Shown one piece after another: positions 4,895 to 37,900 of a DNA stretch of 64,000 nt. This DNA comes from Eledone cirrhosa. Taxonomy: Eukaryota. Location: assembly GCA_964016885.1 (NCBI GenBank), contig OZ024762.1:19220001-19284000 (forward strand). Direction: 5' to 3'. Position 1 is the first letter of the stretch; every line of letters begins with the position of its first letter. Both the position numbers and the translations under genes were made by a program. The notes under the pieces were generated by a model, which saw only the letters and a program-made list of their open reading frames with translations, was not told where the DNA came from and ran no database searches.

Positions 4895-5930
4895 AGGCAA
4901 TTTGAAGGGGAAGGGAAAGTCAAATAGATCGACCCCAGTGTATTACTGGTGCTTTATTTATCGACCCCGTAAGGATGTAAGGCAAAGTTAACCTCGGCGA
5001 GAATAAGAGGACTAAATGAAGCAATGAAATCAATATATTCCCTTTTCTATTTTTGGCACAAGGCCAGCAATTACCCAGTGTATTACTGGTACTTTATTTT
5101 ATCGACCCCGTAAGGATGTAAGGCAAAGTTAACCTCGGCGGGAATAAGAGGACTAAATGAAGAATGAAATCAATATATTCCCCTTTCTATTTTTGGCACA
5201 AGGCCAGCAAATACCCTGTGTATTACTGGTACTTTATTTTATCGACCCCGTAAGGATGAAAGGCAAAGTTAACCTCGGCGGGAATAAGAGGACTAAATGA
5301 AGCAATGAAATCAATATATTCCTTTTTCTATTTTTGGCACAAAGCCAGCAATTACCCAGTGTATTACTGGTACTTTATTTTATCGACCCCGTAAGGATGA
5401 AAGGCAAAGTTAACCTCGGCGGGAATAAGAGGACTAAATGAAGCAATGAAATCAATATATTCCCTTTTCTATTTTTGGCACAAAGCCAGCAAATTACCCA
5501 GTGTATTACTGGTACTTTATTTTATCTACCCCGTAAGGATGTAAGGCAAAGTTAACCTCGGCGGGAATAAGAGGACTAAATGAAGCAATGAAATCAATAT
5601 ATTCCCTTTTCTATTTTTGGCACAAGGCCAGCAATTATATCAGTGTATTACTGGTACTTTATTTTATCGACCCCGTAAGGATGAAAGGCAAAGTTAACCT
5701 CGGCGGGAATAAGAGGACTAAATGAAGAATGAAATCAATATATTCCCTTTTCTATTTTTGGCACAAGGCCAGCAATTATACCAGTGTATTACTGGTACTT
5801 TATTTTGTCCATCCTGTAAGAATCAAAGGCAAAACTAAGCTCGGTGGGATTTGAACTCAAACTGTAAAGGGCCCTAACTCTATGCCACAAAGCATGTTCC
5901 TCGACGCTCTACCGATACTGCCAACATTCT
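4895..5930 (-). repeat. ~141-bp tandem array derived from the tRNA-SINE core, ending in a SINE head
   Basis: gaataagaggactaaatgaa recurs at 5001, 5142, 5282, 5423, 5565 and 5707; each unit contains actggtactttattttatcgaccccgtaaggatg. Confidence 0.9.
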
Positions 5931-16142: not shown

Positions 16143-16428
16143 TCTTTTAGAAGTTACAGGTCTATAAGGGAAGGAATGAAAGGGGTTAACTTCTTTAGAA
16201 GTTACGGTACTATAAGGACAGCAATGAAAGGGTTAACTTCTTTAGAAGTGACGGTACTATAAGGAAAGGAATTAAGGGGTTAACTTCTTTAGAAGTTACG
16301 GTACTATAAGGAACGGAATTAAGGGGTTAACTTCTTTAGATGTTACGGTACTATATGGGAATGAATGAAAGGGTTAACTTCTTTAGAAGTTACGGTATTA
16401 TAAGCAAAGGAATAAAAGGGTTAACTTT
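16143..16428. repeat. 47-bp minisatellite, ~6 copies
   Basis: ttaactt recurs at 16186, 16233, 16280, 16327, 16374 and 16421. Confidence 0.9.
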
Positions 16429-17999: not shown

Positions 18000-18500
18000 A
18001 AATTGTCTTAGTGCGTAGCTCGGAGATCAGAGAGTCACTCCAGGTAGAGCTGCTACTTCTATGAATTGAGAGATCACAGCTCCGATACTACGGACATGTG
18101 GTTAGAATGTCGCTGGACAGATTTGTAGCTCAGATATCAGAGCGTTGCTCCTGGTAGAGCCACTACTCCGAATTGAGAGATCACAGCTCCGATACTATGG
18201 ACATGTGGTTAGAATGTCTCAGGAAAGAATCGCTGGACAGATTTGTAGCTCAGATATCATAGAGTCGCTCCTGGTAGAGCCACTACTCCGAATTGAGAGA
18301 TCACAGCTCCGATACTATGGACATGTGGTTAGAATGTCTCAGGAAAGAATCGCTGGACAGATTTGTAGCTCAGATATCATAGAGTCGCTCCTGGTAGAGT
18401 CACTACTCCGAATTGAGAGATCACAGCTCCGATACTATGGACATGTAGTTAGAATGTCTCAGGAAAGAATCACTGGACAGATTTGTAGCTCAGATATCAG
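18000..18500 (+). mobile_element. RTE-type LINE C-terminal fragment amplified as a 120-bp tandem repeat (~4 copies)
   Basis: Translates EIRESLQVELLL..RIERSQLRYYGHVVRMSQERI, matching the RTE post-RT motif (LRW.GHV.RM); atttgtagct at 18121, 18241, 18361 and 18481. Confidence 0.85.
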
Positions 18501-19540: not shown

Positions 19541-20975
19541 ACCCTTTACCATTTACATTACTCTATATATACTATTGTATTTTCATGGTAAAGGCTTTAC
19601 CTCACATAATGTCACATACCATTTACATTACTCTATATATACTATTGTATGTTCATGGTAAAGGCTTTACCTCACATAATATGTCACATAACATTCACAT
19701 TACTCTATATATACTACTGTATTTTCATGGTAAAGGCTTTACCTCACATAATATGTCACATACCATTTACGTTACTCTATATATACTATTGTATTTTCAT
19801 GGTAAAGGCTTTACCTCACATAATATGTCACATACCATTTACATTACTCTATATATACTATTGTATTTTCATGGTAAAGTATTTACCTCACATAATATGT
19901 CACATACCATTTACATTACTCTATATATACTATTGTATTTTCATGGTAAAGGCTTTACCTCACATAATATGTCACATACCATTTACATTACTCTATATAT
20001 ACTATTGTATTTTCATGGTAAAGGCTTTACCTCACATAATATGTCACATAACATTCACATTACTCTATATATACTATTGCATTTTCATGGTAAAGGCTTT
20101 ACCTCACATAATATGTCACATACCATTTACGTTACTCTATATATACTATTGTATGTTCATGGTAAAGGCTTTACCTCACATAATATGTCACATACCATTT
20201 ACGTTACTCTATATATACTACTGTATTTTCATGGTAAAGGCTTTACCTCACATAATATGTCACATACCATTTACATTACTCTATATATACTATTGTATTT
20301 TCATGGTAAAGGCTTTACCTCACATAATATGTCACATACCATTTACATTACTCTATATATACTATTGTATTTTCATGGTAAAGTATTTACCTCACATAAT
20401 ATGTCACATACCATTTACATTACTCTATATATACTATTGTATTTTCATGGTAACGTATTTACCTCACATAATATGTCACATACCATTTACATTACTCTAT
20501 ATATACTATTGTATTTTCATGGTAAAGGCTTTACCTCACATAATATGTCACATACCATTTACGTTACTCTATATATACTATTGTATTTTCATGGTAAAGG
20601 CTTTACCCCACATAATATGTCACATACCATTTACATTACTCTATATATACTATTGTATTTTCATGGTAAAGGCTTTACCCCACATAATATGTCACATACC
20701 ATTTACATTACTCTATATATACTATTGTATTTTCATGGTAAAGGCTTTACCTCACATAATATCCCACATAACATTTACATTACTCTATATATACTATTGT
20801 ATTTTCATGGTAAAGGCTTTACCTTACATGATATCTCAAATAATATTAAATCTATGAGATTTTGATATTATTTATTTTCAGAACAATATCTTAACATCAG
20901 TATCTTAACATCAGTATGAGCAGCTGGTTAAAACCGGTTTGAACAAAAAGAGGTGAGAGAATTCTGGCCAGATAC
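19541..20975 (+). repeat. 72-bp minisatellite (~18 copies) expanded inside a piggyBac-like MITE
   Basis: The unit and the downstream 20845-20970 match the MITE at 43723-43929; ORFs 19585..20865 and 19649..20857 are 24-aa repeat translations. Confidence 0.9.
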
Positions 20976-21870: not shown

Positions 21871-22509
21871 CTTTACGTATAAATAACTTGCGTATAGATA
21901 ACTTGCGTATAAATAATTTCAAAGAGCAGTTTAAATTTTCACGTTGCTCGAATAGCTGGAACACTCGTCGTCGCTACCGACGAAAGTCCGCTGGCCAACA
22001 CCAAATGTTCTGGTCTCGAATCAAAAGAAATTCTATCTATAAATATTTTCTGATTTTTTTTTTCCTGTCTAATATTAACGTTATTCCATAAAAAAAAATA
22101 CTTGAATAAATTGATTAATATCAATAAACGAGAAATTGATTTTTCATTTTTTTATTTTATTTTATTTTATTTTTTCACCTTTTTTTTCTCTTTTTTTCTT
22201 CATATTTTTTTTTTTTTTTCTCATTTGGTACATTGCCAGTTTTCTGAAAGAAGTATATAATCAATGAATTGACTCTAGATGTTGTTGTCTTTTTACTTGT
22301 TGGGGCTGGTAGAGCAACATTCTCTGTAATCTGCGCCAGCATGGTTGCTTGGGTGCACTGCCCCGCTTGTCAAAATGTTGCTGCTCAGTGATGGTGGAAG
22401 GAGAAAGAGATCCGTCCCCATGGCTTTCACAGGCTCTTCCAGAAGATGGTATCAGCAATGAAAAGTCCAATGAAACTATCGGTCGCTCTCGACAGGTTTG
22501 CAGTCGAGC

Positions 22510-22792
22510 CCCTAGCAATGGAGGCTTCTGGTGTCCTTGGCCCTAAGGCCACCTCTCTACTCACCACCATAGGTGCTGAGCTGGCTACCCCTAACAGTGG
22601 AGACTTCTGGTGTCCTTGGCCCTAAGGCTACCTCTCTTTTCACCATCATAGGTGCTGAGCTGGCTACCCCTAACAGTGGAGACTTCTGGTATCCTTGGCT
22701 CTAAGGCCACCTCTCTACTCACCACCATAGGTGCTGAGCTGGCTACCCCTAGCAGTGGAGACTTCTGGTATCCTTGGCTCTAAGGCCACCTC
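22510..22792. repeat. 79-bp GC-rich tandem repeat, ~3.5 copies
   Basis: ctggt(g/a)tccttggc at 22528, 22607, 22686 and 22765. Confidence 0.9.
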
Positions 22793-23129
22793 CCTAACCA
22801 TCCTCCTGGAAAACTCATCTCTATTTTGTCCGCCGAAGCCATGGGGCGGCCAGCACGTGGGACCCCATTTTCTGATAATAGTGAGAGGAAGGCTGAGACG
22901 GGGGCGATGACAGTGGGAGTTTGGCTCTTCTGTGCTCGGACCTTATGTACAGGTATGTGTATTTTTACACTATCCACCATTATGTATTTCGTTTTACTTT
23001 TCCCACAACCCAAGATGGTTGATCCGATCTAAAGTTGTTCACTACTAGAAGATGAGGGGCTGAAGTTGGGGCTCTCACTGTTAGGATGTAAGGAGTTAAG
23101 GCCCGAAACATATGTTACATGAGGCGAGA

Positions 23130-32711: not shown

Positions 32712-33772
32712 TAATATATATATGTATATATATCTCACAAACAGTTTGTCGCTCTACATGGCTGAATACAATCAATGTAATCTGTGTTTTTCGAATATTA
32801 ATAATATTCGATTCGTTTGCAATTATGCAAACAGCCTCTTTAAACCATGTCAGTAGAATGACCGCGTCATTCTTGCTCTTTACATAAATACATACATATA
32901 TATATATAAAAAGAAAAGTTCGCATGTAATGGATAAAAAGCAAAAGTGACCTCAGCAGGAGCTGAACTCGTAGAGCCGGATTAAATGCCGGACTAAATGC
33001 TGCAATGAATTTTACCCGGCGCTCTACCGACTCTGCCATTACAGTGTAACTTTAAAATTGTAGCAGTAGACAACATTTCGAAATTTATATATTGCTAACG
33101 CGTAAGAACCCTCCAATCACACCTCTGGTAGCTAGACGTGACACCTTTATTGTTACGACATACCGGTTGAATACTCTTAACTTGAACAGTCCGCATTTTT
33201 TTTTATTCTATGTTTTGGCCGCATTCAGATAATAAAAATAAATAATAAATAACAACAGCAACAACAACAAAATCATTCTTCTGCGTATCTCAGAGAAAAC
33301 CAGCCACCTAACTGGCATCTGTATATCGTTTTATTCTGAACATTCACACTTTGCGATCTGTAGCCGATGGACGACATCAAAGAGAATTATAGATTGGAAA
33401 TATTCAACTTACCTATCACCTTCCTTAGTTTTAATCTTTAGCTAAGCTGTATAACACAGAATATTAAATGTGACACTGGAAATTTCGAGAAATATCGACA
33501 AGTTTCTCAGAAATTGTTCGTTAAAACATTGGCTGTTAGTTTTAGATAGTTGAGCAAAACATGGCCGATTGGTTAAGGTATTATCTTGGTAATTGTAAGA
33601 ATCTTGATTCTTAAAAGCCCCGTGGAGATTCGTGGCTAAATCGTTAATAATTCGTTTTGGAAATCATAAGAAATGTTAATATATTTTATCGATCCTGAAA
33701 GAATGAAGGGAGTAGTTGACCTCGGCAGGGTTTGAACTCGAGACGGAGAAGGGAGGGAACATAATACTTTTT

Positions 33773-34606
33773 AATACTGTTCTATATTTTTGAGACGAGA
33801 AATTATTTACATTATATACATTGGACGGATAGGTGTCCTCATCTTGTTTTGTTGTTCACACAACGTTTCGGCTGATGTACTCTCCAGTCTTCATCAGGTG
33901 TCTTCATCTTGTTTTGTTGTTAACACAACGTTTCGGCTGATGTACTCTCCAGTCTTCATCAGGTGTCTTCATCTTGTTTTGTTGTTAACACAACGTTTCG
34001 GCTGATGTACTCTCCAGTCTTCATCAGGTGTCCTCATCTTGTTTTGTTGTTAACACAACGTTTCGGCTGATGTACTCTCCAGTCTTCATCAGGTGTCCTC
34101 ATCTTGTTTTGTTGTTAACACAACGTTTCGGGTGATGTACTCTCCAGTCTTCATCAGGTGTCCTCATCTTGTTTTGTTGTTAACACAACGTTTCGGCTGA
34201 TGTACTCTCCAGTCTTCATCAGGTGTCCTCATCTTGTTTTGTTGTTAACACAACGTTTCGGCTGATGTACTCTCCAGTCTTCATCAGGTGTCCTCATCTT
34301 GTTTTGTTGTTAACACAACGTTTCGGCTGATGTACTCTCCAGTCTTCATCAGGTGTCCTCATCTTGTTTTGTTGTTAACACAACGTTTCGGCTGATGTAC
34401 TCTCCAGTCTTCATCAGGTGTCCCAGTGATGTTATTATTGACGTTTGTTCAGGTAACTGCCTAGAATTGTACTCGGGCAGTGACGTGAACAAACGTTAAT
34501 AATATCATCACTGGGACACCTGATGAAGGCTGGAGAGTACATCAGCCGAAACGTTGTGTTAACAACAAAACAAGATGAGGACACCTATCCGTCCAATGTA
34601 TATAAT
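33773..34606. mobile_element. Foldback HHR element with an internal 9 x 65-bp ribozyme array and a 12-bp target-site duplication
   Basis: tcatcag at 33891, 33956 ... 34411 (period 65); plus-strand HHR CTGATGA 34520-34526 and GAAA 34548-34551-cg-TT; ataatacttttt at 33761-33772 and 34607-34618. Confidence 0.9.
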
Positions 34607-34699
34607 ATAATACTTTTTGTCTTATTTTTGTCACATTCCCCAGCTGATTCGCCACCTACAAATAAATGATCGTGCACCATTGTAATAAAGAAGTCTTCC

Positions 34700-36010
34700 T
34701 AATATTTCGCACAGGGCCAGGAACTTATGGGAAGGAGAAAGTTGATTATATCTACCTACCCCAGGTCTTTATAGATAATTTATTGTATTGACCCCTAAAG
34801 GATAGGATGAAGTGCAGAGTTGATTTCGGTGGGGTTTGAACTCAGAGTGAAAAGAGCCGAAACAAACACTGCTAAACATTTGTCCGATGCTGCACCGAGT
34901 CTGTCATTGTGATAATGGGTTCTGATTTAGGCACAAGGCCAGCAATTCTGTAGGGAAGGGAAAAGTCGATTAAATCGACCCCCAGTGTGTTACTGGTACT
35001 TTATTTTATCGACCCCGTAAGGATGTAAGGCAAAGCTAACGTCGACGGGATTTGAACTCAGAACTCAAATAATGGTTTCTGATATAGACACAAGGTCAGC
35101 AATTTTGGGAAGGGGAAATTCGATTAAATCGACCCCCAGTGTGTTACTGGTACTTTATTTTATCGACCCCGTAAGGATGTAAGGCAAAGTTAACGTCGAC
35201 GGGATTTGAACTCAGAACTCAAATAATGGTTTCTGATATAGACACAAGGCCAGCAATTTGGGGAAAGGGAAATTCGATTAAATCGATCCCAGTGCGTAAC
35301 TGGTACTTTACTTTATCGACTATGTAAGGATGAAAGACAAAGCTAAGCTCAATGGGATTTGAACTCAGAATGTAAAGAGCCGGAACAAATGCTGCTAAGC
35401 ATTTTTGTGACGCAGTCGTAACTACAGTATGTACCGCAAAGGATGTTGTCCGACGCTCTACTGATTCTGCCAATCCACCACAAATCTGTCATTGCAATAA
35501 TAGATGTATCTACTTTTGGCACAAGGCCAGCAATTATCCCAGTACATAACTGGTATCTTATTTGATCGACCCCGTAAGGATGAAAGGCAAAGTTAACCTC
35601 GGCGAGATTTGAGCTCAGAACGTAAAGGGATGTAACTCTATACTGCAAAGCATGGCGTCCGACCCTCTACCGATACTGCCAATCCACCGCCCTAAAGCTA
35701 ATCCACCAATAAATAATAAATCTAACTCAGAACGTAAAAGGCCGTAGCGCTATGCCTCACAAAGCATCTTGTCCGTCGCTCTACCCATTCTACCAATCCA
35801 CCACGAGTCTGTCATTGTAATAATTGTTTCTACTTTTGGCACAAGGCCAGCAATTATCCCAGTGTATTACTAGTACTTTATTTTATCGATCCCGTAAGGA
35901 TGAAAGGCAAAGTTAACTTCGACGGGATTTGAACTCGGGCCATAAAGGGCCGTAACTCTTTGCTGCAAAAGCATGGCGTCCGACTCTCTACCAATCCACC
36001 ACGAGTCTGT
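34700..36010 (-). mobile_element. Cluster of ~6-7 head-to-tail tRNA-SINE copies and fragments (main family)
   Basis: Repeated ggcacaaggccagcaatt...atcgaccccgtaaggatg...gggatttgaactcag. Confidence 0.9.
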
Positions 36011-37854: not shown

Positions 37855-37900
37855 TCTTTTTTTCTGATGAAGGACTAGCGTCCGAAACGTTAAGACTCTT
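37855..37900 (+). ncRNA. Minimal type I hammerhead ribozyme
   Basis: ttt-CTGATGA (37864-37870)-a-ggac tagc gtcc-GAAA (37884-37887)-cg-TT-aag. Confidence 0.7.

What the first reader, a model, noticed from the sequence alone, without database searches (positions are those of the whole stretch)
33830..34422. Minisatellite made of ribozymes: nine 65-bp units, each one minimal hammerhead
Seen: the minus-strand unit is gacac-CTGATGA-agactg gagagtacat cagcc-GAAA-cg-TT-gtgtt-aacaacaaaacaagatgag. The sequence GGACACCT occurs both before the core and 65 nt later in the monomer (34514 and 34579), which would allow slippage or template jumping. Arrayed copies share a stem II change (agactg versus aggctg in the inverted arm). 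Established: HHRs with palindromic ACGU stem III cleave as dimers, and tandem HHR satellites are known in newts and schistosomes with longer units. Inference: a transcript could self-process into 65-nt monomers or circles.
Basis: partly seen in the sequence, partly recalled or inferred. Interest (0 to 1): 0.75.

Follow-up and report, generated by a model that had tools for sequence, protein, structure and literature searches.

The report
Penelope-derived hammerhead minisatellite, likely inactive
Nine back-to-back copies of a small self-cutting-RNA motif sit inside the stump of a common jumping gene; they likely grew in place as ordinary repeat DNA after a mutation that is predicted to misfold every copy, so this is probably inert transposon debris of a known kind.

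Summary
In detail: nine 65-nt units, each with a minimal type I hammerhead core, at 33838-34422 (minus strand). They are the left arm of an 834-bp inverted, 5'-truncated insertion of a Penelope-like retroelement (12-bp target-site duplication, 34-nt tail; longer copies carry RT plus GIY-YIG). The tandem junction occurs only here in a 3.0-Gb assembly (8 of 8 hits), the array is continuous with the parental arm on both sides, all nine units share a stem II G>A change absent from the sister arm, and units differ far less than the arms have aged. So the array likely grew in place at DNA level from an 8-nt microhomology. The shared change is predicted to pair the catalytic core with stem II (stem II probability 1.0 to 0.03 or less). 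No RNA data exist for this organism in my search; short-read support for the junction was inconclusive. Pseudo-LTR-derived hammerhead arrays with units from 51 bp are in print, and this scan noted similar arrays in other genomes. A second, independent 73-nt array of this family exists elsewhere in the genome. Verdict: real, known kind, probably inactive.

The parts
33761..33772 (+). Left copy of the 12-bp target-site duplication ATAATACTTTTT
   Evidence: (D12); 3 of 750 random zones of like AT content gave a match this long; same geometry at other family copies
33773..33806 (-). 34-nt 'tail' present on the left arm only, typical of Penelope-like insertions
   Evidence: 30-40 bp one-sided tail described in PMC8557442 (passages)
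33807..33837 (-). 3' part of the left pseudo-LTR arm, beginning with the downstream GACACCT copy
   Evidence: I2; no difference from the family majority
33838..34422 (-). Array of nine 65-nt units, each one minimal type I hammerhead motif with an A.C mismatch in stem II (G>A at 34408 and every 65 nt); predicted cleavage point of unit 1 after 34382
   Evidence: junction unique in the assembly
34423..34476 (-). 5' part of the left pseudo-LTR arm up to the inversion point
   Evidence: (I1)
34477..34606 (+). Right (inverted) pseudo-LTR arm, single copy
34515..34560 (+). Parental-type minimal hammerhead: stem I 34515-19/34556-60, CUGAUGA 34520-26, extra A 34527, stem II 34528-32/34543-47, GAAA-C-G-U-U 34548-55
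   Evidence: centroid holds stems I and II; 0.6 kcal/mol above minimum
34514..34586 (+). Two GGACACCT copies 65 nt apart (34514-21, 34579-86) that define the repeat unit
   Evidence: 32 of 68 family arms keep an identical 8-mer 65 nt apart
34607..34618 (+). Right copy of the target-site duplication

Best explanation
This is an inverted, 5'-truncated insertion of a Penelope-like retroelement whose left arm holds nine copies of the element's hammerhead module, likely multiplied in place by DNA slippage or unequal exchange after a stem II mutation that is predicted to leave the copies unable to fold as ribozymes. Steps: (1, shown) a Penelope-like element left two outward-facing pseudo-LTR pieces, with a 12-bp target-site duplication and a 34-nt tail. 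(2, inferred) After insertion the left arm took a G>A change in stem II. (3, inferred) The two GGACACCT copies that flank the hammerhead 65 nt apart mispaired and duplicated the module; further rounds gave nine units, in a region rich in minisatellites. The long palindrome may have helped by stalling replication (speculative). (4, predicted) In RNA each unit pairs CUGAUG with CAUCAG and replaces stem I by a GUUGU/ACAAC hairpin, so little or no cleavage is expected.
For: Family identity: L031 shows pseudo-LTR, ORF pieces, pseudo-LTR and an inverted 3' piece; RT matches PF00078 below its cut-off, folds closest to telomerase RTs (Z 6.0 and 5.8); the C-terminal domain matches I-TevI GIY-YIG (Z 9.6, rmsd 1.9 over 77 residues). 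TSD and tail. Junction only here, 8 of 8. Array continuous with the parental arm at both ends. G at this stem II position in 81 of 87 other family arms, A in 4, T in 2, yet A in 9 of 9 units and G in the sister arm. Four private changes in 585 nt against 12-15 expected if the units were as old as the arms (Poisson P 0.006-0.001); adjacent units 7 and 8 share one change. Six other complex-unit minisatellites in this 64-kb window. Stem II probability 1.0 in the sister arm, 0.03 or less in 9 of 9 units; hammerhead-like fold 0.6 versus 6.1-7.2 kcal/mol scale: gap 0.6 for the arm, 6.4-7.2 for the units. Core no better conserved than the rest of the arm among copies (3.1% vs 3.6%).
Against: Folding is a prediction; Penelope hammerhead cleavage can depend on the element's protein (PMC11167929, passages), which could rescue a weak fold. 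No RNA of this organism was available. A second independent hammerhead array exists in this small family (C6): 1 array in 33.6 kb of element DNA against 0.19 expected from flanking DNA of the same 56 loci, not significant but in the direction of a bias. Homogenisation could also make an old array look young. Short-read contigs did not show a piece bridging the junction.
Confidence: 0.8

Rival explanations
1. Nascent active retrozyme: the array is transcribed, neighbouring units form double hammerheads through ACGU:ACGU and release 65-nt linear or circular RNAs.
For: Every unit keeps an exact core; a nested double-hammerhead pairing of units 1 and 2 is possible; dimers and trimers of a minimal Schistosoma hammerhead cleaved weakly (PMC4209133); retrozymes are proposed to arise from pseudo-LTRs in just this way (10.64898/2026.07.22.740005).
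Against: Stem II mismatch in 9 of 9 units and predicted core sequestration; double-hammerhead fold about 20 kcal/mol above the minimum; no dispersed copies of the junction; no RNA evidence; exact cores are expected in so young an array without selection.
Confidence: 0.07
2. The array was written during insertion by the reverse transcriptase jumping back 65 nt on the RNA template, or by copying a small circle.
For: Penelope insertions are often partial tandems (PMC8557442, passages); the array lies inside the insertion; microhomology would also guide template jumps.
Against: Repeated copying of one template would give both arms the same base: both arms share the upstream variant at 34424/34513, but only the left has the stem II change. 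Units are too alike for the age of the arms. The parental pseudo-LTR has one hammerhead, so self-cleavage cannot release a 65-nt circle from it (inference).
Confidence: 0.08
3. Assembly artefact: one unit expanded by the assembler next to a palindrome.
For: None of the 8 pieces shown per run (of 49 laid in each of X1 and X2) bridges the junction, although the longest were kept; the locus is a long palindrome.
Against: Units carry distinct changes, one shared by two neighbours; X1 confirms the flank-to-tail junction over 499 nt without a difference and shows the unit 9 private base at about single-copy depth; contigs drop rare paths, so absence is not shown.
Confidence: 0.04

Closest known systems
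Minimal type I hammerheads in pseudo-LTRs of metazoan Penelope-like elements (Cervera and De la Pena 2014, PMC4209133)
   Same: [quoted passage not shown]
   Different: Here one arm's motif is repeated nine times at 65-nt spacing and carries a stem II mismatch.
Animal non-LTR retrozymes (Cervera and de la Pena 2020, PMC7229834; Li, Clavereau and Pollet 2026, 10.64898/2026.07.22.740005)
   Same: Tandem units each with a type I hammerhead; origin from a Penelope pseudo-LTR by local amplification, as the 2026 preprint proposes; unit length inside its 51-972 bp range.
   Different: Classical retrozymes have 150-450 nt units, canonical hammerheads, many genomic loci and abundant circular RNAs. This array is single-locus, has a minimal and predicted misfolded motif, and no RNA is known.
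Inverted 5'-truncated EN+ Penelope-like insertions with tail (Craig et al. 2021, PMC8557442)
   Same: Outward-facing arms, one-sided 30-40 bp tail, AT-rich or (TA)n targets, RT followed by GIY-YIG in longer copies.
   Different: No ORF remnant is left in this copy; the clade (probably Penelope/Poseidon) was not fixed by a tree.

Membership tests
EN+ Penelope-like element | Telomerase-related reverse transcriptase in longer copies of the same family | tested here: met
   PF00078 E 1.2e-6, just below cut-off; top structural matches are telomerase RTs at modest Z 6.0 and 5.8; 326 homologues at E<=1e-20
EN+ Penelope-like element | C-terminal GIY-YIG endonuclease | tested here: met
   I-TevI catalytic domain Z 9.6, rmsd 1.9, 77 aligned, next rows also GIY-YIG; Foldseek prob 0.96 at E 0.25; no Pfam hit
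EN+ Penelope-like element | Pseudo-LTRs in direct and inverted arrangement, 5' truncation, one-sided tail | tested here: met
   L031 and many loci; window element 33773-34606 with 34-nt tail and 12-bp TSD
Penelope/Poseidon clade | Placement in an RT tree; no zinc-finger linker | not tested
   No tree built; domain order RT then GIY-YIG is compatible
Minimal type I hammerhead | Core CUGANGA / GAAA / NUH with extra base at 9-10.1 and palindromic 15.2-16.2 | tested here: met
   9 of 9 units and the sister arm fit the consensus seen in the supplement
Minimal type I hammerhead | Helices I and II form | tested here: not met
   Predicted only: met for the sister arm, not for the 9 array units
Minimal type I hammerhead | Self-cleavage | not testable with these tools
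   Needs in vitro transcription
Non-LTR retrozyme | Tandem repeat with a type I hammerhead motif in each unit | tested here: met
   this is the operational definition of the 2026 preprint
Non-LTR retrozyme | Mobilised to several loci as its own unit | tested here: not met
   8 of 8 exact junction hits lie in this array; an exact 24-nt pattern would miss mutated junctions
Non-LTR retrozyme | Expressed as linear and circular monomer RNAs | tested here: inconclusive
   No RNA run of this organism among 23 rows

The most novel reading that the evidence does not exclude
A retrozyme caught at birth: this family's pseudo-LTR holds its hammerhead between short direct repeats, so slippage yields exactly one ribozyme per unit; it happened twice independently in this genome (65-nt and 73-nt units), and with the element's protein as chaperone the nine-mer still cleaves into 65-nt RNAs or circles, among the smallest natural ribozyme circles.
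Probability: 0.07. Interest if true: 0.6.

Novelty: new member of a known kind. Interest (0 to 1): 0.2.

Why it matters
As read here it matters little on its own: it is a clean worked example of the step proposed in print for the birth of animal retrozymes (pseudo-LTR to local tandem), with parent arm, microhomology and order of events all visible, and it warns that motif counts overcall 'active' retrozymes, since an exact core can sit in a misfolded unit. If the array did cleave, it would give a natural 65-nt self-processing RNA and a direct test of whether multimerisation switches on minimal Penelope hammerheads.

Tried and rejected
Rfam at gathering threshold: no match in the window. Pfam gave no GIY-YIG hit on three frames; PDB sequence searches showed only RTs; the fold of the isolated domain settled it. 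The protein atlas was unavailable. Short-read contigs: no bridging piece shown and the '-65' joints only reflect the normal interior of the motif; depth could not give copy number. A two-strand folding script crashed without output, so there is no calibrated double-hammerhead control. The sigma-70 promoter scan is irrelevant to an animal genome and was ignored. Open frames of the window were listed but not scanned against families; none was recognised as a host exon, so an intronic position is neither shown nor excluded. Enrichment of arrays on the hammerhead: 1 observed against 0.19 expected, not significant. Three paper searches found no paper on cephalopod hammerhead minisatellites; the preprint's supplementary tables, which may list short-unit families, were not seen.

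Full report
Observation. The minus strand holds nine units of exactly 65 nt, starting at 34422 and stepping down to 33902, followed by a last GACACCT at 33837; TRF reports period 65, 9.1 copies, 99% matches. Each unit reads stem I (GACAC), CUGAUGA, an extra A, a 5-bp stem II with a 10-nt loop, GAAA-C-G-U-U, stem I (GUGUU) and a 19-nt A-rich linker. Five of nine units are identical; unit 5, units 7 and 8 (the same change) and unit 9 carry one change each. A single plus-strand copy lies at 34515-34579. The motif fits the consensus for minimal hammerheads of Penelope-like elements in the supplement of PMC4209133. A strict pattern of this class has 8038 hits in the 3.0-Gb assembly against 2 for the reversed control, so the motif is real and very common here.

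What it sits in. The array is the left arm of a palindrome: arms 34351-34461/34476-34586 and 33807-33902/34515-34610. The whole element, 33773-34606, is flanked by ATAATACTTTTT at 33761-33772 and 34607-34618; 3 of 750 random zones of like composition gave such a match, and other copies show 11-14 bp repeats in the same position or lie in (TA)n. The left arm has 34 extra bases, the one-sided tail described for Penelope-like elements (PMC8557442, passages). A DNA search of the genome gave 107 matches among 40 of 156 candidates scored; an exact 26-nt hammerhead pattern gave 85 hits, 10 here, 5 in one other array and 70 dispersed. Most fetched copies are outward-facing arm pairs with a variable piece of the element's 3' end between them. 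L031 has two direct arms around 2.4 kb of broken ORF plus an inverted piece. A 355-residue frame from L040 matches PF00078 just below cut-off, has 326 homologues at E<=1e-20, one named from Octopus sinensis at 72% identity (the host is therefore probably an octopus, an inference), folds closest to telomerase RTs at modest Z, and its last 100 residues match the I-TevI GIY-YIG domain at Z 9.6. The family is an endonuclease-bearing Penelope-like element and the window copy is a pseudo-LTR-only inverted insertion.

How the array arose. The parental arm has GGACACCT before the core and again 65 nt on; 32 of 68 family arms keep this identical 8-mer. The tandem junction occurs 8 times in the assembly, all in this array (an exact pattern, so mutated junctions would be missed). 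The array is continuous with parental sequence on both sides and inside the TSD, so it was not inserted as its own unit. Both arms share one upstream variant (34424/34513), as expected from one insertion event, but only the left arm has the stem II G>A; 81 of 87 other arms, from 54 of 55 loci examined, have G, 4 A and 2 T. Each arm has 3 private differences from the family majority (of 135 and 104 nt); at that rate 585 nt of array should hold 12-15 private changes and holds 4 (P 0.006-0.001). With two neighbours sharing a change, this points to growth in place after insertion and after the mutation; homogenisation of an older array cannot be excluded. The region is prone to this: six other complex-unit minisatellites (47-154 bp) lie in the same window, against 1 in 175 kb of flanking DNA at 56 other loci.

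Would it cut? The sister arm folds with stems I and II in its centroid, stem II probability 1.0, and the hammerhead-like fold lies 0.6 kcal/mol above the minimum. In the array units the core CUGAUG pairs with CAUCAG and a GUUGU/ACAAC hairpin replaces stem I; stem II probability is 0.03 or less in 9 of 9 units and the gap is 6.4-7.2 kcal/mol. Three dispersed copies with the same change also lose stem II. A nested double hammerhead of units 1 and 2 can be drawn but lies about 20 kcal/mol above the minimum; I have no active dimer as a control, and in a longer context even the sister arm loses stem I to the same hairpin. Among family copies the core is no more conserved than the rest of the arm (3.1% vs 3.6%), although many loci were picked by an exact hammerhead pattern, and 30 of 74 ungapped copies are fully intact (13 gapped arms were set aside). 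In print, a minimal Schistosoma hammerhead did not cleave as monomer and weakly as dimer or trimer (PMC4209133, parts 1-2 of 4 read, plus four supplement passages; one supplement file could not be searched); an Anolis Penelope hammerhead cleaved only with protein, and no RNA reads ended at its site (PMC11167929, passages); 1 of 9 Xenopus dimers cleaved (10.64898/2026.07.22.740005, parts 1-3 of 5 read, supplements not seen).

Reads. Three runs of one sample hold 66-73% of the sampled words; they may be the assembly's own sample; no RNA run of this organism was listed. One contig confirms 33300-33798 without a difference, and the private base of unit 9 appears at about single-copy depth. No piece bridging the tandem junction was among the 8 shown per run of 49 laid, although the longest were kept; contigs drop rare paths, so copy number is unconfirmed.

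A second array. At G000:C6:84802631 the same family has a 4.8-copy array of 73-nt units built on a different microhomology; its junction is also single-locus, 4 of 4, its stem II alternates C and T between units, which suggests two-unit DNA duplications, and its units are also predicted 2.0-7.8 kcal/mol away from the hammerhead fold. One such array in 33.6 kb of element DNA against 0.19 expected is not a significant excess.

Comparison and verdict. Classical retrozymes have 150-450 nt units, canonical hammerheads and abundant circles (PMC7229834, passages). The 2026 preprint reports tandem families of 51-972 bp and proposes that a pseudo-LTR gives rise to such arrays by local amplification. 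This locus meets that operational definition but has not moved and is predicted to misfold. After my reading was set, the scan's notes showed similar Penelope-derived hammerhead minisatellites in other genomes (unchecked). Three paper searches found no report for cephalopods. It is a new member of a known kind, probably inert; interest 0.2.

Noticed in passing
L057:2131-2483 (G000:C6:84802631): Second, independent hammerhead minisatellite of the same family, 73-nt unit x 4.8, different microhomology, single-locus junction, stem II base alternating between units.
   Followed up: partly
window 37864-37895 (+): Minimal hammerhead of another, far more abundant family (CUGAUGAAGGACUAGCGUCCGAAACGUU type), dominant among the first 100 of 8038 pattern hits.
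   Followed up: no
window 8640-8600 (-): A further hammerhead-like core with a longer stem II region.
   Followed up: no
window 4934-5849, 16146-16427, 18015-18499, 19547-20842, 22509-22796, 34912-35370: Six other complex-unit minisatellites (47-154 bp); the 141- and 154-bp units resemble each other and a dispersed SINE-like repeat. The window is much richer in such arrays than 56 other loci.
   Followed up: partly
L031:2296-5426 (G000:C2:119924295-119927425): Near full-length but broken copy of the parental Penelope-like element with direct and inverted pseudo-LTRs.
   Followed up: yes
runs X4, X5, X9: Related pseudo-LTR families are far more abundant in three other organisms (thousands of contigs laid), with fixed differences beside the hammerhead.
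   Followed up: no
L004:134-892, L039:1226-1879, L042:4439-5119: Fragments of other GIY-YIG-like retroelement frames lie beside family copies (by eye, not scanned).
   Followed up: no
window 34579-34594: The downstream GGACAC copy can fold into its own hairpin with GTCC, and GUUGU/ACAAC competes with stem I even in the parental arm; these may form a switch in the pseudo-LTR RNA.
   Followed up: no
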